Sequence record: NC_048170.1
Direction: 5' to 3' (one strand)
DNA: 64,000 nucleotides
Source of the DNA: Escherichia phage vB_EcoM_Goslar
Shown here: positions 3,633 through 44,898 of the stretch, piece by piece
Numbering within the stretch: the first letter of the stretch is position 1
How the letters are laid out: each line of letters starts with the position of its first letter
Translations under genes and position numbers: made by a program
Notes under the pieces: model-generated
What the model saw: the letters and a program-made list of their open reading frames with translations, nothing else
Databases searched by the model: none
Told to the model about the DNA's origin: nothing

Positions 3633-4652
3633 TTACACCGCCACCTTAGCCTTGATAGCGGGGTGTGATTGATATCCGACGAACACAAAGTCTTCGTAAC
3701 GGTAATCCGTAATACTTTCTGGTTTACGTACGATTGTTAGCTTCGGTAATGGATACGGCTCACGACTAAGTTGTTCTTTAACCTGTTCGAAGTGGTTGTG
3801 ATAGATGTGACAATCTCCACCCGTCCACACGAACTCACCAACGTCCATATTCAGCTGTTGGGCAAGCATGTGTGTCAGCAGTGAATATGATGCGATGTTA
3901 AAGGGAGTCCCTAAAACTGTGTCCTGTGATCTTGCGAGTAGCATGCATGATAAGGCGCGTGTCGGTACGTTGTGTGTATTCAACCAAAGTTCCGTTTCAC
4001 TGTGTCGTACATCATCCGTAACCCACTGGGTTCTTAATACGTCGTTGCGTTGAACATAATCAACACGTTCATCGATCGTGAGCTCGTGGGTATAGAACTG
4101 ATAGAAACTGTGGCATGCGGGAAGCGCCATATCGTCTAAATCACCTACGTTCCATGCGCTAACGATGATCCGTCGAGAATCAGGGTCTTCTTTAAGCTGA
4201 CGCATCACGTTTGCGATTTGGTCGTGGTGTTTAACATACAAGAGATGTTTGACCATACCGGCGTCAACAACACCGCAATACTCATAGCCGCGTTGCATCA
4301 ACTCACGAGTACGTTCTGTATCGTGCGGAACAACCACTTTGTAGTCGATCCATTCCCGCCATTGTTTGCCGTAAATCGGTCCTAGATTCCCTTCTTCGTC
4401 AGCCCATTCATTCCAGATACGAACACCGTTATCTTGAAGATAAGCAACGTTTGTGTCGCCGTTAAGAAACCAGAGCAGTTCGTGGATAACGCTCTTAAGG
4501 TGAATCTTCTTGGTGGTTACCAGCGGGAATCCTTTCTTCAAGTCAAAACGCATCTGACGCCCGAATACGGAACGGGTCCCGGTGCCTGTACGATCAGCTT
4601 TATCGCGACCGTTATCCATGATGTCTTGCAAAAGGTCCAAATACTGTTTCAT
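3633..4652 (-). CDS. thyA: thymidylate synthase
   Basis: Translation carries the ThyA core: [29 protein letters not shown] (catalytic Cys), [32 protein letters not shown]. Two insertions relative to bacterial ThyA. Confidence 0.9.
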
Positions 4653-4852
4653 TTTAATCCTCTAAGTGTTTCAAGTAGTTCCTGAAATTTATAACGATAT
4701 TTAGGATCGCTTAACGTGTAGCAGCAACCATGTAACACGTTATACGCGTAATCGGCTTGTAAACCACGAACCTTCGGATCCAATGATAGATTCAACGGTG
4801 CATCATCAAAAATCCACGCTTCAATGTTCTTCTTGGATTCCTTCGTTAACAT
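4649..4852 (-). CDS. hypothetical protein
   Basis: 67-aa ORF, 4-nt overlap with thyA start. Confidence 0.35.
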
Positions 4853-5017
4853 CGTTTTTCACCTCGTCGTAAAAGTAAATAGAGTTTTGTCGAGACGCCC
4901 TAATTACTTACAACGTCGGTTCTCCCGGCTTCAGAGAATTCTTAAAATCCGTTAGTTTTGATAGATAGGGTAAGACGGCATAAAAGCCTCCCATTACGGG
5001 AGGCTCTATTAATCAGC

Positions 5018-5566
5018 TTATTTCACAAGAACAGCGAATTCGAGAACATGAATAGCTTCATCGTCCATCGGATTTGTCGTGGTATAACCGACGAAGCAAT
5101 AGCCCATATCCACGATAAACTCTCTAAGTTTATCGATGACTGATGCCCCGATACGATCGTCAACAGACAGGCGACATTTACGGGTTATGTTTTGCCCGCG
5201 AGGAACGCCAGCTAACACGGATAGGAAATGTACGATCCGGTTATTGGTTGCGAACTGCTTGAAATCATCGTAGTGCTTAAGGTCTTTCATCGCAGACTCT
5301 ACCGTCATACGACGACCAGGCGACACATACTCAGAATAAGAATAAGCTGCAATCGTGCGGCGGTCTTCAGTGAGGTAAGTATTCCCTTCGGGATGATAGC
5401 TCTCGATTGTTCCGTCTTCATAAGCGACGGTCACAACAGGTGCGCCGTACTCGTCGCGACCGAAATCAATTTTACATTTATCCGAAAGCGGTAGAACCGT
5501 GCAAGGTTTTGCGTTGTTCTCATCAGGGAGATCGTAACCACTCATCATTTTCAAGAACATAGACAT
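5018..5566 (-). CDS. hypothetical protein, member of a tandem paralog family
   Basis: 182 aa; shares NNAKP, TIAAYSYS and a C-terminal ...VLVK with 5653-6186, and its C-terminal half with 6263-6562. Confidence 0.5.
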   Translation of the reverse strand: MSMFLKMMSGYDLPDENNAKPCTVLPLSDKCKIDFGRDEYGAPVVTVAYEDGTIESYHPEGNTYLTEDRRTIAAYSYSEYVSPGRRMTVESAMKDLKHYDDFKQFATNNRIVHFLSVLAGVPRGQNITRKCRLSVDDRIGASVIDKLREFIVDMGYCFVGYTTTNPMDDEAIHVLEFAVLVK

Positions 5567-5652
5567 AATAGAACCTCATGATAATAGATAATAGAAATGA
5601 TAGATAGTACAACAAATTGAGGGGGTATTATCCCACCCCCTCGTAGGGATTA

Positions 5653-38967: not shown

Positions 38968-39606
38968 TTAACCTAATTTACCACCGGCGATGTTGGTGAA
39001 ATCTTCGCCATCAGGAACTTGCAGTAGGATACGTGCCATGTCCCAGTTGGTTAATGTGATTGCTTTATCATCGATACTCAGTTCTGGTAGGTCGAGTTCA
39101 TGATCATCAAACTCGTAGGAAATACTCCACGTTTCGTCTGTTTTAGGATCGGTTATCAACACACCGTCTGTTACACGCATGTAGTCCGGATGCAGTTCAT
39201 TACTGAATGTGCTGAACGGATCGGTGTAACATTCAGCATACCCCTCGATCTGCTGACGCTGTGCCTTCGTACGTAATTCAGGGCATGCCATGATCAGTTG
39301 TCGAGATATGCCGTTTGCGGCACGGAAGTCTTCCACGGTGTTACATGGCATAACCACATCGTCATGGAAGATGTTCTCCGATTGTCTCAGCAAAGTCTTA
39401 CGGAGTTCAGCATAGTTTATCTGATTGAATGCATCGAACGTTGCTAACGATTCAGCGTAAAAATGCTTTACGTGTTCGCTTGCACCGCCGAGACTATTCA
39501 TCAACTTGTGACCGTACTCCATGAAACTTTTATCGAGACCGGAGGACATTTCTCCGAACCTCAGTGCACGATAACTGTCTCGTCCACCTGTAAATATTTG
39601 CGCCAT
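38968..39606 (-). CDS. hypothetical protein
   Basis: 212-aa ORF with AGGAGG RBS, directly downstream of beta'-N exon 3. Confidence 0.45.
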   Translation of the reverse strand: MAQIFTGGRDSYRALRFGEMSSGLDKSFMEYGHKLMNSLGGASEHVKHFYAESLATFDAFNQINYAELRKTLLRQSENIFHDDVVMPCNTVEDFRAANGISRQLIMACPELRTKAQRQQIEGYAECYTDPFSTFSNELHPDYMRVTDGVLITDPKTDETWSISYEFDDHELDLPELSIDDKAITLTNWDMARILLQVPDGEDFTNIAGGKLG

Positions 39607-39621
39607 TACAGGCGTCCTCCT

Positions 39622-39846
39622 TTAGCAATGGGTGTTAGTTGCTTCTATTTCGTCAAGATAAGGTTCTACGTCATCGCCCTCCACGAATTCGTTGAACCAG
39701 CAGTCAATGGTAGAAATAACCGGTGACTGGTGTTCACATTTCTTAGATACCTTAAAAGGTACGTTATTATCCATCATACCGAGTTCGGGTCGAAAACGCC
39801 CGAAATGTTTCGCAGTCCAAATGTCTGGGACGATATGGTTGTTCAT
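39622..39846 (-). CDS. RNA polymerase beta'-like N-terminal subunit, proposed exon 3
   Basis: Begins MNNHIVPD, aligning with beta' QMAVHVPL right after the catalytic DFDGD; in frame with proposed exons 1 and 2. The exact 3' splice site is uncertain. Confidence 0.45.
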   Translation of the reverse strand: MNNHIVPDIWTAKHFGRFRPELGMMDNNVPFKVSKKCEHQSPVISTIDCWFNEFVEGDDVEPYLDEIEATNTHC

Positions 39847-40201
39847 CGTGGTGTTCAGCATGAGTCGCTACCTCATACCCGCAGCTTTACCTGCAGCTTC
39901 CGGTGTTACCGGAATGTCCAGAATACATCTTATCCATATTCCAAATGGAACGTAGGACTTCCGCGCTGGATCTCGCTTGAGACCACGTATTCGTTGAACG
40001 TTCTCCTGAACGGAGCTTCGCTGCTGATCGAACATTGTCGCGTACGGTAGGCGTCCCCGAAGGGATTGTCATTGAAGCCGCGTACATCCGCTACCTTGTT
40101 TCTACCTTATCGGTTCCTCTTACGAGGCGTAGCGGCCTTAGCCCTTCCCAGCAATTCACGGAATCCAAGCTCTTCCTTTCGGAAGGCAGGGCCTATGATT
40201 A
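39847..40201 (-). ncRNA. putative group I intron 2 (ORF-less)
   Basis: Minus-sense elements in canonical order: P-like GAATTGCTGGGAAGGG (40157-40142), Q-like CAGCAGCGAAGC (40026-40015), R-like GTTCAACGAATACG (39999-39986), S-like AAGATGTATTCTGG (39931-39918). R/S pair as GAATAC/GTATTC. GAAA and UUCG tetraloop hairpins; ends in G at 39847. Confidence 0.5.
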
Positions 40202-40214
40202 AGCGTCACCGTCG
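40202..40214 (-). CDS. RNA polymerase beta'-like N-terminal subunit, proposed 13-nt mini-exon (encodes D-G-D-A)
   Basis: Minus-sense CGACGGTGACGCT supplies GAC GGT GAC; joined to exon 1 (...GAC TT) it restores NADFDGD. Confidence 0.4.
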
Positions 40215-41654
40215 CTTACGTGCACCGACGTTTATTAACTCATGGTTATCCACTGAAATACGGCGTTAGGGAAATAATCCTTCTTGCCGCGTTTTGAGAT
40301 TTGCAATGCCATATTACTCGGAGACAATCTGTAATGCCATGCTGCTTCATCGATAGAACTAAACTTCTTTGTTTCACCGTTATCAAAGATGATTTTCAAC
40401 GCCAGTTTAGGTAAATCGTCTTCCGTTTCTACTAATTCGAAAGAATCGATATTCTCTGCCAGCGTCAACGGATCAACTGGTAATATCAGCCAACCAGCAC
40501 GCTGCAATCCTCCACGTAGACTAATTTGTTTATTCAACGCAGGGGTAGCCATGCCAACTAACTTAGCAGCCAGCTTGCGGTCTTTAATATAAAGACGATA
40601 ATCTCCGGTATTATTAATAGCATACACACCAAAGTTATTGAACGATACCTTTCCAGCATCGGAACTAGTAAAGCCTACAAAGTCGTGGCTGTCGGTAGCC
40701 ACGTCGTATTTAAATGCTAATGGCTTGTTTCGACTGCCGCTAAGATACTTCTTGGCTGTAGATACCGATATGTTGAGATATCGTCCAATAGCATTCAAAC
40801 TTTCTAGTTCGATGATTTCTCCTGTCAATATGTCCTTTAACCGAACATTACCCATCGGTATTGGTGGTTTACCGACATAACCCAATTCACGATATGCGTG
40901 TTTCAAGTTATCTGAATCAGTAGCCCATTCCAAATTTTCTAGTCTGTTATCCCAACGCACCCCATTAAGATGATTAGGGACACGACGGATTATACCTGAC
41001 GTCGGATCTGGGTTAAATGTTTCAAGGACAATCTGATGATGGTATTTCACTTTATTGTTCCTAGTGAAAGCGCGATAGTTGTTTTTGCCCGACTTGGGTG
41101 GTTCAGTACGAAACAACACTGTCAGACTAGACACATCTACTATCGTACCGTTCTTATTAACAACGATACCATCAAAACCATTAACAGGACGATAATCAGA
41201 CAAACAATCTTCAGAAATTGCCTGTCCAACTAAAGGTTCACTCAATTTGACCTCCTTTATAAAAGAAGTCGGTGCACGTAATTATCGACTATATCTTCAT
41301 CCTCGTTGCGAGGAGTCTCCCGTTTTGGTCTGTGTTTAACAGAGCCTACTCTACTCGACATCGCGTCTTTCGATAGTCTGTGAGCACACATCTTAACGAA
41401 CATTCGTGGATTCCTAAACAGGTGAACGTTCTTGTTGAGATGCTTCGCTGCGGATTATTCCCGTCCTACCTCTTTTACCCTACCCAGTTCATTACGCTGG
41501 CCCTCATCTGTGTCACCACGATGAGTTGGTGTGTAGTCCGATTACAGAAACTTCCCGTCAATTAGAGAGTTTTAACTACGTTCCTGTTACCAGAAACCCG
41601 ACTCCGACGATATCAATAAATCAACGTAAGTTATTGATTTAATTGAAGAAACTG
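40215..41654 (-). mobile_element. putative group I intron 1 carrying an HNH homing endonuclease gene
   Basis: Minus-sense P AATTGACGGGAAG (41563-41551), Q AATCCGCAGC (41456-41447), R CTCACAGACTATCG (41384-41371), S AAGATATAGTCGA (41297-41285). Candidate internal guide GAGTCGG (41604-41598) pairs with the exon 1 end CCGACTT with G-U at the splice site. 14-bp inverted repeat (41268-41281 and 40216-40229) encloses the ORF; terminal G at 40215. Confidence 0.6.
40235..41245 (-). CDS. HNH homing endonuclease (intron-encoded)
   Basis: KYHHQIV...VPNHLNGVRWDNRLENLEWATDSDNLKH matches the HNH motif; C-terminal helix-turn-helix-like regions; TTG start 5 nt after AAAGGAGGT. Confidence 0.75.
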   Translation of the reverse strand: MSEPLVGQAISEDCLSDYRPVNGFDGIVVNKNGTIVDVSSLTVLFRTEPPKSGKNNYRAFTRNNKVKYHHQIVLETFNPDPTSGIIRRVPNHLNGVRWDNRLENLEWATDSDNLKHAYRELGYVGKPPIPMGNVRLKDILTGEIIELESLNAIGRYLNISVSTAKKYLSGSRNKPLAFKYDVATDSHDFVGFTSSDAGKVSFNNFGVYAINNTGDYRLYIKDRKLAAKLVGMATPALNKQISLRGGLQRAGWLILPVDPLTLAENIDSFELVETEDDLPKLALKIIFDNGETKKFSSIDEAAWHYRLSPSNMALQISKRGKKDYFPNAVFQWITMS

Positions 41655-42910
41655 AAGTCGGCATTATAACCTTTGAGGATCATCACGCTTAACCCGATGG
41701 TGTTATCCTGCGGATCGCGTTTAACCTTGGTGATTTCAAGACATTGGTTACTGCTTCGGTCAAGTGATGGGTTTCGAACAAAGCCACACACAATCCCATC
41801 GAACGGTGTATCAGCAATAAGCTCATCGTGCAGCTCGCTCATCATCGGATGATAATTACGGACATGTTCCGCAACGAACGCACGTGCTGCTCTCGGTGAA
41901 TAACCACGATGGAATAACTTGGATTGGATATGTTCTTTATTGGTTAAAGTAAATGGTGCGTATGGGAAATGCAGATGATAATAACGATGGTTCGCTGTTA
42001 TCGAACTGATTACAGTACGCGTGGTGAATGGATGTAATGTACCTAATATGTTTTTACGTGTAATACCTTTCTTCTTACCGATGAACTCATCGAAAATCGC
42101 CGCGTGGTATTGCAGCAGCTTCAATTGCACTTTCGCCATCCAGTTTTCTTTCTTTCTGGCGCTCAAAGGTGTTGTTGGATGATAGATACTATTCAACGTA
42201 CCGATAGCATCGATCGCACCTTCCATTTTGCTATCTGCATAACGACCGGTCGGCGTATTTTCGATAACGAACATCATGGCCGCAGGAAAGCTGATATACT
42301 GACTGAAGAACTTATCACGATGGATTCGGATGAATTCTCGTAGCGTGTCAACTTTCTCCGTGTTCTTCGGTCCACGTAACGTAGGTCCTTTATACAAGAT
42401 CTCCATGATGCGATCGAAGTTCTGTATAAAGCTATTTACGCCACGACGTATCCCGAATACATCGAATTGCTGCTCCAGATAGTTCTTGAGTTCGATGGGT
42501 CGTTTTACATTTGGACGGTAACTGGCATCAATGAGCCACGTCATCGTTTCAAAGCTTTTGATATTCAACTCGCTTGCCAGCACGAGATGGACCAACGGGT
42601 TAATGAACGCATCGATTCCTTCAGGAACACGCGCCCAAACCGTCGAACGAATCTCTTGTTCTGCTGGGTAGGTTACAACCGTTTTACAGTTTGGACACAC
42701 CGTGCCGAGTAGCTCACCACGATTGTAGAAACCACAACCACATTGTGGTGTGATATCCAACGTATCGCTGGAATAAACACGGGTGATAAAACTGTTTAAT
42801 TTCTTCTTCTCTTCGACGACTTTTGTATCGTAATCGTTCAACAAAATCGGCGTAAAAGGAAGTTCTGCGAGCTGTCTATCGAAACTCACGATATCGAGCA
42901 TGATGGCCAT
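41655..42910 (-). CDS. RNA polymerase beta'-like N-terminal subunit, exon 1
   Basis: Zinc ribbon CGCGFYN...CPNC; GITRKNILGTLHPFTTRTVI parallels [20 protein letters not shown]; ends ...LKGYNADF. The unspliced ORF then reads SFFN-stop. Confidence 0.7.
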
Positions 42911-42952
42911 GGGGTATCTCCTACAAATGAAAAAGAACGTTAGGACGTATAA

Positions 42953-42976
42953 GGGAGGGAGGTTGCCCTCCCTCCC
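42953..42976 (-). terminator. GC hairpin downstream of the 631-aa gene
   Basis: Perfect 10-bp inverted repeat gggagggagg/cctccctccc with 4-nt loop. Confidence 0.5.
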
Positions 42977-43002
42977 GTCAGATTACATCGAACGTTCTTC
43001 CA

Positions 43003-44898
43003 TTAGAACAGGTTGAATGCCCCACCCATGTTGTTAACGCCAACATTCGGACGATCGCTACGTGCGTAGATGTTACCGGAGATGTTACCCAGACCACGAG
43101 CACGTGCTGCCATGTTACCACGAACAGCGGTACCTGCCAGATGCTGGATGTTCTCAGGACGGATGGTGAAGCCAGCATCAGCAGCGGCTTCGATCAGCGC
43201 CTGCAGTGCTAACGGATCGAAGTCGTAACGCATTGCCCAGCCGGTTTGTTCCCAGCTACCAGACAGAACACGATCGATGATTTCGTGACGAGCGACAACA
43301 CGCTGAGACATCGTCATATCGGTACGGTCGAAGCTGTCTTCCCAAGCTTCTACGGTATCCGGGTTAGTGATGTTCATCATGTACAGATCGTCCATATCAC
43401 GAATATCGTGACGGTGACCATCCTGGTGGTTGTAGTGACCCAGCGGGATACGGTTACCGGTAGCGTAGACCAGCGGTAAGCCGTATTGATATTTCTTGCT
43501 GAAGCAACCCAGGGTAACATCATCGAACGCACGGTAAAGCGCTTTGTAACCTTCGGAGATTTCACGGACTTCACCTTCAACTTTGCCCGTATAGATCTTC
43601 TCAGCCGCCGGGATCATACGCAGCAGCCAGCTGTACTCACCTTCTTCCGGTACGTCGATAGAAATCAGCAGAGACGGATACAGTACCTGTTGCAGGAACT
43701 TGTAAATCTGCTCGTTGGTTTGAGTGGACAGATCCAGCGGTGCGGTAACTTCCGGATCCAGTACCATCGCCAGAGCACCCGGGTTATGCGGACCAATACC
43801 ACGGGCAGCGTTGCTGATTAAAGACTGTGCCCACGCCATACCGCTGTTCAGCGTAGCGATGGTGCCAATCAGCCCCAACACGAAAGTGTTCGGCGTGAAC
43901 GCATCCAGCTCCAGCGGGTAAGCGCTGGTCATCACGTAACGCGGCTGGTATTGTACAGTCGGCGGTACCGGATAACCGTTAACCAGAACAGGGCCTTGGT
44001 TGAAGGTCGGGTTCTGCGGGCTGTAGGTCAGGTCGATGTAACCGGTGGTGGCGACCAGACGCTGTTGACTATCGTAATCGCTCATCGCTTGACGGATACG
44101 GTTAGAGATAGTTACAGTGATGTCAGAACGCACAGGGTTACCAACAATATCGCTGTCCTGCATACCGCTGGTGTTATACTGAACGCTGCTGATTGGCTGA
44201 TCGCTTGCCATCATGCCCAGGTTGAACTGCGGCAGACCCAGTTTATCACCGAGACGGATTTCGATCGCGGTTTGGATTGCGTTATCTGCAGCAGACAGCA
44301 GGGTGGTTGCCAGATGCGCAGATTCAGCGGTGATTTCATTGGTCACCACAGCCAGACCAGCGATACGAGCAGTACCATTAGACTTACCGCCAATAGCTGC
44401 ATACATTGCCGCCATGACTTCGTTGATGAACGTACCGTTCAGGTTATCAACCCAGGTACGCGGTACCAGAATGTTACCATGCGGACCTTGTTCTTCACGA
44501 CGCGGCAGCGGAGCCAAACCGGCAACCAGCGGAAGCACATAACCAAAGAAGTGGTTATGGTCACCAACTTTTGCACCACTCATAACGACCAGGGTCGGAT
44601 ACGGTACGCTGTACTGGTTCGGGTCAACCGCAACAAAGATGAAGTCGTCTTTGAACCGGGTATCTTCCAGATATTTCTCCATCAGACGACGGAGATTCAG
44701 TACCTGCTCGGAGCCAGTATTACGGCTAATACGACGGCTCAGTGTACGGTTGATCGTACGCATCGTATGAGTTACTTTAGGCTGGCCAGCAAAATCTGCA
44801 GCGGTTTCCAGCGCCTCATCAGCACGTTGTGCGGTGCGGGTTTCAGCTGCACGAATTTCTACATTATCGTTACCGTTATTACGTACGTCTAAGCCCAT
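43003..44898 (-). CDS. abundant structural protein candidate: chimallin-like nuclear-shell protein (alternative: capsid or sheath protein)
   Basis: 631-aa ORF with codon usage that looks strongly biased; promoter-like motif 67 nt upstream; sits immediately upstream of the beta'-N gene, the arrangement I recall for the phiKZ shell-protein and RNAP genes. No diagnostic motif seen by eye. Confidence 0.45.
   Translation of the reverse strand: MGLDVRNNGNDNVEIRAAETRTAQRADEALETAADFAGQPKVTHTMRTINRTLSRRISRNTGSEQVLNLRRLMEKYLEDTRFKDDFIFVAVDPNQYSVPYPTLVVMSGAKVGDHNHFFGYVLPLVAGLAPLPRREEQGPHGNILVPRTWVDNLNGTFINEVMAAMYAAIGGKSNGTARIAGLAVVTNEITAESAHLATTLLSAADNAIQTAIEIRLGDKLGLPQFNLGMMASDQPISSVQYNTSGMQDSDIVGNPVRSDITVTISNRIRQAMSDYDSQQRLVATTGYIDLTYSPQNPTFNQGPVLVNGYPVPPTVQYQPRYVMTSAYPLELDAFTPNTFVLGLIGTIATLNSGMAWAQSLISNAARGIGPHNPGALAMVLDPEVTAPLDLSTQTNEQIYKFLQQVLYPSLLISIDVPEEGEYSWLLRMIPAAEKIYTGKVEGEVREISEGYKALYRAFDDVTLGCFSKKYQYGLPLVYATGNRIPLGHYNHQDGHRHDIRDMDDLYMMNITNPDTVEAWEDSFDRTDMTMSQRVVARHEIIDRVLSGSWEQTGWAMRYDFDPLALQALIEAAADAGFTIRPENIQHLAGTAVRGNMAARARGLGNISGNIYARSDRPNVGVNNMGGAFNLF

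What the first reader, a model, noticed from the sequence alone, without database searches (positions are those of the whole stretch)
39622..42910. RNA polymerase beta'-N gene interrupted inside the catalytic NADFDGD motif by two group I introns
The ORF 41655-42910 has beta' N-terminal hallmarks (CxC...CxxC zinc ribbon; G-x-x-R-K-N-x-L-G...R-T-V-I) and runs to ...GYNADF, but the unspliced frame continues SFFN-stop, so the three catalytic aspartates are missing. Downstream lie about 400 nt with canonical group I elements P, Q, R and S in order, an HNH endonuclease ORF, 13 nt encoding DGD, another 355 nt with P/Q/R/S-like elements and GNRA/UNCG hairpins, then an ORF beginning MNNHIVPD. Splicing at U41655, G40215/C40214, U40202 and G39847 gives in-frame ...YNADFDGDAMNNHIVPD, which aligns without gaps to bacterial ...YNADFDGDQMAVHVPL. 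Intron-encoded endonucleases in jumbo-phage RNAP genes are known, but a twin-intron arrangement splitting the Mg-binding motif codon by codon would be unusual.
Basis: partly seen in the sequence, partly recalled or inferred. Interest (0 to 1): 0.95.

Follow-up and report, generated by a model that had tools for sequence, protein, structure and literature searches.

The report
Two introns split RNA polymerase active-site motif

Summary
On the minus strand the gene for the non-virion RNA polymerase beta'-N subunit (a phiKZ gp55 homologue, next to chimallin) is three exons. They are 42910-41655, 40214-40202 (13 nt, CGACGGTGACGCT) and 39846-39622. Intron 1 is 1440 nt and carries an HNH/NUMOD endonuclease ORF. 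Intron 2 is 355 nt and has no ORF.

Splicing gives a 497-aa protein that aligns gap-free to spliced phiKZ gp55 across NADFDGD (E 1e-74). Intron 1 has a near-threshold Rfam hit, a 7-bp P1 with two compensatory exon/guide changes in relatives, a 5-bp P10 and a terminal G. Intron 2 scores poorly in Rfam, but a 10-sequence alignment supports a full group I fold: 99% of cells paired and 36 of 94 pairs with compensatory changes.

Relatives that are about 98% identical lack intron 1, intron 2 or both, and there they read ...NADFDGDAMNN... continuously. This confirms both junctions. Other relatives carry three introns with 14-nt and 13-nt microexons. In all there are four insertion sites within about 27 nt.

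An intron with an HNH gene in this motif is already known in phiKZ (gp55/56/56.1). I therefore class this as a new variant of a known kind. The window is probably E. coli phage Goslar. Splicing itself was not tested.

The parts
41655..42910 (-). Exon 1 of the nvRNAP beta'-N gene (a phiKZ gp55 homologue, probably Goslar gp188). It encodes residues 1-418 plus the first two bases of the Phe419 codon and ends ...GCC GAC UU.
   Evidence: ORF list and translation. Pfam RNA_pol_Rpb1_2. phmmer against 7OGP_A gives E 1e-74. Relatives differ at 20-35 synonymous but only 0-2 non-synonymous codons.
40215..41654 (-). Intron 1, a 1440-nt group I intron carrying a homing-endonuclease ORF.
   Evidence: RF00028 at 41269-41645, 46.9 bits, E 6.8e-10, covering the full model 1-253. 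Canonical R (CACAGACUA) and S (AAGAUAUAGUC) elements. ORF-less alleles of 376-380 nt sit at the same site in five relatives. The site is empty in L002, L008, L010 and L013.
41598..41609 (-). Internal guide of intron 1. CGUCG (41609-41605) pairs with the first 5 nt of exon 2 to form P10. GAGUCGG (41604-41598) pairs with the exon 1 end CCGACUU to form P1, with U.G at the splice site.
   Evidence: 7/7 pairs in P1 and 5/5 in P10 in all six alleles. Relatives have exon CAGAUUU with guide GGAUCUG, which is two compensatory pairs.
40235..41245 (-). HNH/NUMOD homing-endonuclease ORF (336 aa, TTG start preceded by AAGGAGG) inside intron 1.
   Evidence: Pfam HNH_3 1.9e-7 and NUMOD1 4.4e-5. PHROG 59 at 2.9e-23. 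The best full-length phage match is PhiPA3 gp210. It is homologous to phiKZ gp56 and to the L010 intron ORF.
40216..41281 (-). A perfect 14-bp stem, UUACGUGCACCGAC (41281-41268) with GUCGGUGCACGUAA (40229-40216), encloses the endonuclease ORF just before the terminal G40215. It is a P9-type terminal stem-loop.
   Evidence: Read directly. The stem and ORF are missing as one unit from the ORF-less alleles, which end ...GAUAUAGUCGAUAACAG.
40202..40214 (-). Exon 2, a 13-nt microexon CGACGGUGACGCU. It supplies the last base of the Phe codon plus Asp-Gly-Asp-Ala.
   Evidence: The same 13 nt (with synonymous variants) lie between introns in L003, L007, L009, L012 and L014. They are continuous with neighbouring exon sequence in L008, L010 and L013.
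39847..40201 (-). Intron 2, a 355-nt ORF-less group I intron with P1-P9.2, a large P5 extension, P7.1, and P7 = GAAUAC/GUAUUC.
   Evidence: RNAalifold on A1 finds the nested helices. With P7 added, 99.3% of cells pair and 36/94 pairs show compensatory change, against 34-44% and 1-4 pairs for the slid controls. RF00028 gives 16.7 bits here and 28 bits for the L002 allele. The site is empty in L008, L010, L011 and L013.
39622..39846 (-). Exon 3, MNNHIVPD...THC plus the stop codon (74 codons). It is the C-terminal part of beta'-N.
   Evidence: It aligns to phiKZ gp55 residues 443-495, which are encoded by PHIKZ056.1. It is under purifying selection.

Best explanation
The gene for the beta'-N subunit of the phage's non-virion multisubunit RNA polymerase is interrupted, inside the DNA that encodes the Mg-binding NADFDGD loop, by two independent self-splicing group I introns separated by a 13-nt exon.

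Intron 1 aligns its exons on one contiguous guide, 5'-CGUCG|GAGUCGG-3'. GAGUCGG pairs with the exon 1 end CCGACUU (P1, with U.G at the cleavage site). CGUCG pairs with the first five bases of exon 2 (P10). Exogenous G attacks after U41655, and the freed exon 1 3'-OH then attacks after the terminal G40215.

Intron 2 uses a short P1 hairpin: the exon bases GCU pair with the guide GGC, and two further pairs lie on the intron side. It ends in G39847. The two guides use opposite ends of the 13-nt exon (bases 1-5 and 11-13). The introns can therefore splice in either order.

Ligation gives ...GYNADF-DGDA-MNNHIVPD..., a 497-aa subunit.

Intron 1 is a mobile element. Its I-HmuI/gp210-like HNH-NUMOD endonuclease, encoded in the loop of a terminal 14-bp stem, is inferred to nick intron-less alleles in co-infecting relatives and so drive homing. 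Because intron 2 lies only 13 nt away, homing of intron 1 would co-convert it.

Shown here: the sequence anatomy, the fold covariation, the empty-site alleles and the homology of the spliced product. Inferred: actual splicing, the order of splicing, and endonuclease activity and target.
For: - The frame is restored exactly.
- The spliced product aligns gap-free to spliced phiKZ gp55 through NADFDGD and on to residue 476. 258 phage records cover at least 80% of it in one tblastn place, and all 40 rows listed are a single uninterrupted piece running past the motif.
- Intron 1 hits RF00028 at 46.9 bits, E 6.8e-10.
- P1 of intron 1 shows two compensatory exon/guide changes, and P10 is perfect in six alleles.
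- Intron 2 fold: 19 helices, 99.3% of cells paired, 36 pairs with compensatory change, 0/500 shuffles reaching the observed value, and the slid controls collapse.
- The P7 G-C pair at the position of the G-binding pair never varies across the 10 sequences (columns 223-297).
- Both introns follow a U and end in G.
- Each site is empty in some alleles that are about 98% identical, and those alleles show the predicted ligated sequence.
- ORF-plus and ORF-less forms of intron 1 differ by exactly the stem plus the ORF.
- Both long exons are under purifying selection in the spliced frame.
- Precedent: the phiKZ gp55/56/56.1 intron in the same motif. Its product, named PHIKZ055 plus PHIKZ056.1, is chain A of the solved phiKZ RNA polymerase structures 7OGP/7OGR.
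Against: - No RNA or protein data were available, so splicing is inferred.
- Both Rfam hits in the window are below the family's gathering score of 50 bits. Intron 2 on its own is not significant (E 0.72).
- P1 of intron 2 has only three exon base pairs, and its P10 is at best 4 bp (UCAU with AUGA), so splice-site definition by the guide alone looks weak.
- Most covariation for intron 2 comes from one deep split between the site-c introns and the site-a' introns, that is, from few independent events.
- No completely intron-free allele was found in this clade.
Confidence: 0.9

Rival explanations
1. Only intron 1 is a working ribozyme. The 355-nt segment is a decayed intron remnant that splices poorly or needs a protein or another RNA in trans, so much of the transcript yields no active subunit.
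For: The Rfam score in the window is 16.7 bits, E 0.72. P1 has three exon pairs and P10 is weak. P7 departs from the consensus (GAAUA instead of GACUA).
Against: The P7 change is compensated on the other strand (UAUUC). Three further P7 variants in relatives are also compensated. 36 pairs covary and 99.3% of cells pair. The element is kept at 355 +/- 2 nt in seven alleles while the exons stay under purifying selection. The enzyme cannot work without exon 3 joined in frame.
Confidence: 0.05
2. The tandem arrangement is used for regulation. Skipping the 13-nt exon (exon 1 joined to exon 3) or delayed splicing would give a catalytically dead beta'-N lacking DGDA, which would tune polymerase activity during infection.
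For: Exon skipping by tandem phage group I introns has been reported for Twort orf142 and for a gene of phage SIOphi (PMC11878797). A 13-nt exon is easy to lose.
Against: Skipping 13 nt shifts the frame, so the product would be truncated rather than a clean deletion. The guide of intron 2 (GGC) does not match the exon 1 end (ACUU), and the P10 guide of intron 1 (CGUCG) does not match exon 3 (AUGAA). Close relatives manage with one, two or three introns at different sites, which argues against a conserved regulatory role.
Confidence: 0.07
3. There is no RNA splicing. The gene is naturally fragmented, as other RNAP subunits of these phages are, or is a pseudogene. The 423-aa and roughly 79-aa products assemble without the aspartate triad, or another gene supplies it.
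For: Jumbo-phage RNAP subunits are split into separate genes. An ATG-initiated ORF (39861-39622) overlaps exon 3.
Against: The missing DGDA is encoded exactly in frame between two ribozyme-like elements that have correct U/G boundaries. Alleles with empty sites have the continuous motif. Homologues are continuous. The phiKZ homologue with the same interruption appears in the solved polymerase structure as the fused product.
Confidence: 0.02
4. The arrangement is an assembly or chimera artefact.
For: None specific. Repeated intron-like sequences can confuse assemblers.
Against: An identical sequence is present in an independent 237,307-bp IMG/VR record. Related arrangements recur in eight or more independent metagenome assemblies.
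Confidence: 0.01

Closest known systems
phiKZ gene 55 intron (PHIKZ055 | gp56 HNH endonuclease | PHIKZ056.1)
   Same: The same gene (nvRNAP beta'-N, next to chimallin) and the same motif. It is a group I intron (RF00028 75.6 bits) with a homologous HNH ORF of about 334 aa. Its 3'-terminal domain is 81% identical over 47 nt to window intron 2. The spliced product is chain A of the solved polymerase structure 7OGP. The intron is cited in the literature (PMC11512511).
   Different: phiKZ has one intron, inserted between Asn and Ala (AAU|GCU), and its ORF lies in the P1 loop near the 5' end. The window has two introns at other positions (after GAC UU and after GCU) with a 13-nt exon between them, and its ORF lies in a 3'-terminal stem-loop.
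PhiPA3 gp210 intron (Birkholz et al. 2024, Science; PMC11620839)
   Same: A group I intron with an HNH nicking homing endonuclease in a chimallivirus RNA polymerase gene, inserted next to conserved aspartates. gp210 is the best full-length phage match of the window ORF (23% identity, 92% coverage).
   Different: It lies in the virion RNAP beta (RpoB-like) gene gp211/209, not in nvRNAP beta'. It is a single intron. Its endonuclease activity and competitive benefit were demonstrated there, whereas nothing was tested here.
Unannotated intron in Erwinia phage pEa_SNUABM_54 (MW879341)
   Same: A gp55 homologue interrupted in the same motif by a group I intron (RF00028 47 bits) with a 334-aa HNH-like ORF after the core. 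Its P1 is GACGGU with GCCGUC, and its P10 is AGAGCGU with ACGCUCU.
   Different: It has a single intron at yet another site (DFDG|D). The host gene is only about 36% identical.
Multi-intron phage genes (Twort orf142 and nrdE; Bastillevirinae DNA polymerase, terminase and rNDP reductase)
   Same: Two or three group I introns in one essential gene. A small extra exon lies between two introns in the phiNIT1 rNDP reductase gene, and exon skipping was seen (PMC11878797).
   Different: The genes and phage families differ. No report I could read gives exons as short as 13-14 nt or four alternative sites within about 27 nt among near-identical genomes.
Tandem introns with mini-exons in fungal mitochondrial genes
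   Same: Self-splicing introns separated by exons of one to a few nucleotides are described there, for example rnl-576/577 of Ophiostoma (PMC12308204).
   Different: That case involves group II introns in an organellar rRNA gene. It is an analogy of arrangement only.

Membership tests
Group I self-splicing intron (Rfam RF00028): intron 1 | Conserved core P3-P8 with P/Q/R/S elements, scored by a covariance model | tested here: met
   46.9 bits, E 6.8e-10, full model 1-253. This is 3 bits below the curated gathering score of 50. The ORF-less allele in L003 scores 46.5 bits.
Group I self-splicing intron: intron 1 | P1 formed between the 5' exon end and an internal guide, with U.G at the cleavage site; P10 with the 3' exon; terminal G | tested here: met
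   CCGACUU pairs with GAGUCGG (7 bp, U.G). CGACG pairs with CGUCG (5 bp, adjacent to P1). The last base is G. Relatives show two compensatory P1 changes.
Group I self-splicing intron: intron 2 | Covariance-model match to RF00028 | tested here: inconclusive
   16.7 bits, E 0.72 in the window, and only a partial model match. Alleles in L002 give 28.0 bits (E 6e-5) and 26.4 bits (E 2e-4) over the full model. All are below the gathering score.
Group I self-splicing intron: intron 2 | Group I helix topology (P1-P2, P3/P7 pseudoknot, P4-P6, P8, P9) maintained by compensatory change | tested here: met
   94 pairs in 19 helices, 99.3% of cells paired, 36 pairs with changes on both sides. The slid controls give 34-44% paired and 1-4 such pairs. 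P7 shows three compensated variants.
Group I self-splicing intron: intron 2 | U at position -1 paired to G of the guide; terminal G; P10 | tested here: inconclusive
   U.G is present in 9 of 10 alleles (C-G in L002), and all end in G. However, P1 has only 3 exon pairs, and P10 is at most 4 bp and overlaps the P1 hairpin.
Group I self-splicing intron (both introns) | Autocatalytic, guanosine-dependent excision and exon ligation | not testable with these tools
   No RNA data were available. The indirect support is the empty-site alleles with the predicted ligated sequence.
Subgroup IA2 (T4 td / Twort type) | Extra helices P7.1 and P7.2 between P7 and P3' | tested here: inconclusive
   Intron 2 has one well-covarying extra hairpin between P7 and P3' (columns 231-249, all six pairs compensated). 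A second helix (P7.2) was not identified. The resemblance of its 5' end to T4 td is from memory only.
HNH homing endonuclease of the I-HmuI / PhiPA3 gp210 type | HNH catalytic motif plus NUMOD-type DNA-binding modules, encoded in a peripheral loop of a group I intron | tested here: met
   HNH_3 and NUMOD1 are above the Pfam cut-offs; the I-HmuI NUMOD-like match is below its cut-off. PHROG 59. tblastn to gp210 gives E 4e-9. The ORF lies in the loop of a 14-bp stem. There is no sequence-level match in the PDB.
HNH homing endonuclease | Site-specific nicking of the intron-less allele | not testable with these tools
   Candidate substrates exist: the site-b-empty alleles of L002, L008, L010 and L013.
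Chimallivirus nvRNAP beta'-N subunit (phiKZ gp55 family) | Sequence homology over the full length, an N-terminal Cys4 zinc ribbon, NADFDGD, and a position next to chimallin | tested here: met
   7OGP_A E 1e-74 over residues 21-476. CxC...CxxC and, after splicing, NADFDGD. Chimallin (PF25677, E 4.8e-25) lies immediately upstream.
Twintron (an intron nested in an intron) | One intron inserted inside another, requiring sequential removal | tested here: not met
   The two introns lie side by side and are separated by 13 coding nucleotides. These nucleotides are exon sequence in the alleles with empty sites.

The most novel reading that the evidence does not exclude
The roughly 27 nt that encode (G)YNADFDGDA may be a contested homing hot spot.

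- In one near-clonal phage population, introns occupy four different positions. Two more positions are used in phiKZ and in Erwinia phage pEa_SNUABM_54.
- 11 of the 12 codons LKGYNADFDGDA are synonymously polymorphic.
- Two ORF-less paralogous introns (71% identical, with the same guide GGC) each sit after a GCU codon, at N-A|D and at D-A|M.

This pattern fits ORF-less introns reaching new sites by guide-directed reverse splicing rather than by endonuclease homing. It also fits stacked introns being kept because each one destroys the recognition sites of rival phages' intron endonucleases, that is, introns acting as immunity in the interference competition shown for PhiPA3 against phiKZ.
Probability: 0.25. 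Interest if true: 0.8.

Novelty: new variant of a known kind. Interest (0 to 1): 0.6.

Why it matters
- **Annotation.** If the window is phage Goslar, the E. coli model chimallivirus, its nvRNAP beta'-N is a 497-aa product of three exons. The 423-aa ORF lacks the catalytic aspartates. Expression constructs, knock-downs and structural models of this subunit need the spliced sequence.
- **Intron biology.** A 13-nt exon, and 14 + 13 nt in relatives, is about as short as two group I guide sequences allow, so this is a compact test of how neighbouring ribozymes avoid mis-splicing.
- **Intron spread.** The population carries every intermediate: empty sites, ORF-less and ORF-containing forms, and paralogous introns at two GCU sites. 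These sit in genomes about 98% identical that infect a tractable host. It is therefore a practical system for asking how group I introns reach new sites and whether intron occupancy protects against competitors' homing endonucleases.

Tried and rejected
- Megablast of the region against INPHARED phages found nothing. The source phage and its close relatives seem to be absent from that collection, so relatives came from IMG/VR and metagenomes instead.
- phmmer of the HNH ORF against PDB sequences found nothing, so the I-HmuI relationship rests on Pfam, PHROG and gp210 only.
- The AR9 genome paper and the Twort three-intron paper are not held. I therefore could not compare AR9 intron positions or Twort exon lengths.
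- A search for 'NADFDGD' together with 'group I intron' found no paper. The microexon search returned almost only spliceosomal work.
- nhmmer with alignment A1 failed on a file-format option. blastn of all four intron types against the window found no further copies, and the whole-window Rfam scan found none.
- I built no family-specific covariance model, because at 350-380 columns it would exceed the calibration limit.
- I first mis-placed the 3' splice site of the pEa_SNUABM_54 intron at the annotated ATG. The P10 pairing (AGAGCGU with ACGCUCU) and homology place it before GACGCTCTC.
- I considered and rejected four readings, for the reasons given under the rival explanations and the membership test: twintron, intein, naturally split subunit, and assembly artefact.
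- I did not run the large protein-database searches. Every junction already had an empty-site allele, so the answer did not depend on them.
Full report
**1. What is there**

All features lie on the minus strand. An ORF at 42910-41639 has the N-terminal hallmarks of an RNA polymerase beta' subunit: CGCG...CPNC and KKGITRKNILG...TTRTVIS. It runs to ...KGYNADF and then reads SFFN-stop.

| exon | window coordinates | length |
|---|---|---|
| 1 | 42910-41655 | 1256 nt |
| 2 | 40214-40202 | 13 nt, CGACGGTGACGCT |
| 3 | 39846-39622 | 225 nt including the stop |

Joined, they form one open frame of 497 codons reading ...GYNADF-DGDA-MNNHIVPD.... The two intervening segments are 1440 nt and 355 nt. Each follows a U and ends in G.

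**2. The gene and the phage**

- The ORF immediately upstream (44898-43003) is a chimallin (PF25677, E 4.8e-25).
- The spliced product matches chain A of the phiKZ non-virion RNA polymerase structure (7OGP, 'PHIKZ055 ... PHIKZ056.1') with E 1e-74 over residues 21-476. NADFDGDAMNNHIVPD aligns without gaps to NADFDGDQLNLTLMPD.
- By tblastn, 258 phage records cover at least 80% of the product in one place, and the listed matches are single pieces running past the motif.

The gene is therefore the nvRNAP beta'-N subunit of a chimallivirus. An IMG/VR record identical over 39400-43100 is 237,307 bp long. That is the published genome size of E. coli phage vB_EcoM_Goslar, which also has no tRNAs, and Goslar gp188 is described as the phiKZ gp055 homologue. 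The window is thus very probably Goslar. I could not confirm this by accession.

**3. Intron 1 (41654-40215)**

- Rfam RF00028 matches 41645-41269 over the whole model at 46.9 bits. E is 6.8e-10 in the 5-kb search and 8.7e-9 over the whole window. The score is 3 bits under the curated threshold.
- The R (CACAGACUA) and S (AAGAUAUAGUC) elements are canonical.
- Intron bases 46-57 form one contiguous guide. CGUCG pairs with the first five bases of exon 2 (P10). GAGUCGG pairs with the exon 1 end CCGACUU (P1, U.G at the splice site).
- In five related alleles the exon reads CAGAUUU and the guide reads GGAUCUG. That is two compensatory pairs plus one A-U to G.U change, and all seven pairs are kept.
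- After P7, a perfect 14-bp stem (41281-41268 with 40229-40216) carries a 336-aa ORF in its loop. The ORF has an AAGGAGG ribosome-binding site and a TTG start, and it matches HNH_3, NUMOD1 and the PHROG 59 HNH endonucleases.
- The best full-length phage match of this ORF is PhiPA3 gp210, the intron endonuclease shown to nick a competitor's RNAP gene.
- The related alleles lack the stem and ORF as one unit and end ...GAUAUAGUCGAUAACAG. This is the usual relation between the ORF-containing and ORF-less forms of a mobile intron.

**4. Intron 2 (40201-39847)**

On its own it is a weak Rfam match: 16.7 bits, E 0.72, partial model. Its core matched unannotated gaps in several phages by blastn. The three I inspected lie beside endonuclease genes in split RNAP-beta and DNA-polymerase genes, or in a gap between genes.

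The decisive evidence is comparative. I aligned seven alleles at this site with three copies of a 71%-identical paralogue found at another site (alignment A1).

- RNAalifold, with no guidance, predicted P1, P2, P3, P4, P5 with a long extension, P6, P6a, an extra hairpin between P7 and P3', P8 and three 3' hairpins.
- I added P7 as the expected pseudoknot. Then 99.3% of 940 cells pair and 36 of 94 pairs show changes on both sides. No shuffle out of 500 reaches the observed values. Sliding the 3' partners by 1-3 columns drops pairing to 34-44% and compensated pairs to 1-4.
- P7 is GAAUAC/GUAUUC in the window, GAUCAU/AUGAUC in the paralogue and GAGUA/UACUC in L002. Each departure from the consensus GACUA/UAGUC is compensated.
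- The G-C pair at the position of the guanosine-binding pair never varies.
- The L002 alleles reach 28.0 and 26.4 bits over the full Rfam model (E 6e-5 and 2e-4). In L003, three consecutive RF00028 hits line up.

The weak points are P1 and P10. P1 has three exon pairs (GCU with GGC) plus two intron-side pairs. P10 is at most UCAU with AUGA. The covariation also rests largely on one deep split between two intron lineages.

**5. Natural proof of the junctions**

A degenerate pattern for MNNHIVPDIW recovered eight metagenome loci in addition to three IMG/VR contigs. Their exon 1 differs from the window at 20-35 synonymous and 0-2 non-synonymous codons out of 411. Exon 3 differs at 0-15 synonymous and 1-3 non-synonymous codons. 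Both long exons are therefore under purifying selection in the frame that splicing creates. Around the motif the alleles differ in intron content:

| allele(s) | arrangement around the motif |
|---|---|
| window / L001 | ...GCC GAC TT \| intron 1 with HNH ORF \| C GAC GGT GAC GCT \| intron 2 \| ATG... |
| L003, L007, L009, L012, L014 | ...GGG T \| intron A (365 nt) \| AT AAT GCA GAT TT \| intron 1 without ORF \| C GAC GGN GAY GCT \| intron 2 \| ATG... (three introns; 14-nt and 13-nt exons) |
| L002 | ...AAC GCT \| intron B (350 nt) \| GAC TTT GAC GGT GAT GCC \| intron 2' \| ATG... |
| L008, L013 (L011 at least downstream) | intron B only, then continuous GAC TTT GAC GGN GAC GCN ATG AAC |
| L010 | intron A only, carrying a different HNH ORF in its P1 loop, then continuous AT AAT GCT GAT TTC GAC GGG GAC GCG ATG AAC |

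I found no fully intron-free allele.

**6. Mechanism**

The guide of intron 1 uses bases 1-5 of the 13-nt exon. The guide of intron 2 uses bases 11-13. The two ribozymes can therefore define their sites independently and splice in either order. Neither guide matches the other intron's exon, which argues against systematic exon skipping. Skipping would also shift the frame.

The HNH enzyme is inferred to nick alleles with site b empty and so drive homing. Intron 2 lies only 13 nt away and would be co-converted. Consistent with this, every allele that has intron 1 also has intron 2 (6 of 6). Splicing, endonuclease activity and the enzyme's target were not tested.

**7. What is known and what is not**

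It is not.

- phiKZ itself has PHIKZ055 ending ...LKAPN, then the gp56 HNH ORF, then a ribozyme core (RF00028 75.6 bits), then PHIKZ056.1 beginning ADFDGDQLNL.
- The literature lists introns in phiKZ gp55 and gp180 and the endonucleases gp56, gp72 and gp179 (PMC11512511). The fused protein is in the solved polymerase structure.
- The phiKZ intron shares its 3' domain with window intron 2 (81% over 47 nt). Its ORF is homologous to those found here.
- Phage U5 carries the same intron with a decayed ORF.
- Erwinia phage pEa_SNUABM_54 has an unannotated intron at DFDG|D.
- Introns are also known in PhiPA3 vRNAP beta, in PhiPA3 nvRNAP beta gp65-66, and in the virion beta'-N genes of AR9, PBS1 and other phages.
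- Multi-intron phage genes, a small inter-intron exon and exon skipping have been reported.

I did not find described, in the papers I could search or read:

- two or three introns stacked in this motif with 13-14-nt exons;
- four alternative sites within about 27 nt among genomes about 98% identical, six sites counting phiKZ and pEa_SNUABM_54;
- any mention of introns in Goslar gp188.

**8. An extra pattern worth testing**

Among the alleles, 11 of the 12 codons LKGYNADFDGDA vary synonymously and none varies in amino acid. Elsewhere in exon 1, 5-9% of codons differ from the window in any one relative.

Introns B and 2 are ORF-less paralogues with the same guide. Each is inserted after a GCU alanine codon: AAY GCU|GAC and GAY GCU|AUG. 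Intron A shares a 94%-identical 3' block of 48 nt with intron B.

This looks like movement between neighbouring sites, possibly by reverse splicing, together with recombination among introns. It could also reflect selection to escape or block rival homing endonucleases. I rate that reading at about 0.25.

**9. Verdict**

This is a new variant of a known kind. My confidence in the two-intron splicing model is 0.9, and I score interest at 0.6.

Noticed in passing
window 43003-44898 (-), and the whole window: The gene upstream of the split polymerase gene is a chimallin (PF25677). An identical IMG/VR contig is 237,307 bp, the published size of E. coli phage vB_EcoM_Goslar, and the window has no tRNA genes. 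The window is therefore probably Goslar, whose close relatives seem to be absent from the phage BLAST collection.
   Followed up: partly
L003 7243-8364 (also L007, L009, L012, L014): Relatives about 98% identical carry three group I introns in the same motif, separated by a 14-nt exon (ATAATGCAGATTT) and a 13-nt exon. Three consecutive RF00028 hits score 30.3, 46.5 and 16.7 bits.
   Followed up: yes
L010, intron after AAAGGGT (1381 nt): The site-a intron exists in a form that carries a 323-aa HNH-like ORF in its P1/P2 loop (27% identical to the window ORF). The three-intron alleles carry the ORF-less form of this intron. Two different endonuclease-bearing introns therefore compete for the same 30 nt.
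   Followed up: partly
L002 7604-7975: The site-c intron of this allele follows GCC rather than GCU. The base at position -1 is C, paired C-G with the guide, instead of the near-universal U.G wobble. Its P1/P2 region has diverged from the homologous intron that lies 18 nt upstream in the same gene.
   Followed up: no
L018 (Erwinia phage pEa_SNUABM_54, MW879341) 4264-5639: A 1376-nt group I intron with an HNH-like ORF interrupts the gp55 homologue after GAC TTT GAC GGT. The record annotates the pieces as four separate hypothetical proteins.
   Followed up: yes
alleles L001-L014, codons LKGYNADFDGDA (window about 41677-40202): Eleven of these twelve codons are synonymously polymorphic among the alleles, while the amino acids never change. 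This is far denser than in the rest of exon 1.
   Followed up: partly
window about 42953-42976 (-): A G+C-rich inverted repeat, GGGAGGGAGGG-CAAC-CTCCCTCCC, followed by TTAT lies between the chimallin stop codon and the beta'-N start codon. It looks like a terminator or a processing hairpin.
   Followed up: no
L015 (Serratia phage 2050HW) 1-3838; L017 (Pseudomonas phage HPP-Temi) 1-3027: Short core matches to window intron 2 fall beside endonuclease genes that split an RNAP beta gene (2050HW) and a DNA polymerase gene (HPP-Temi). Related introns are thus spread across several essential genes of jumbo phages.
   Followed up: partly
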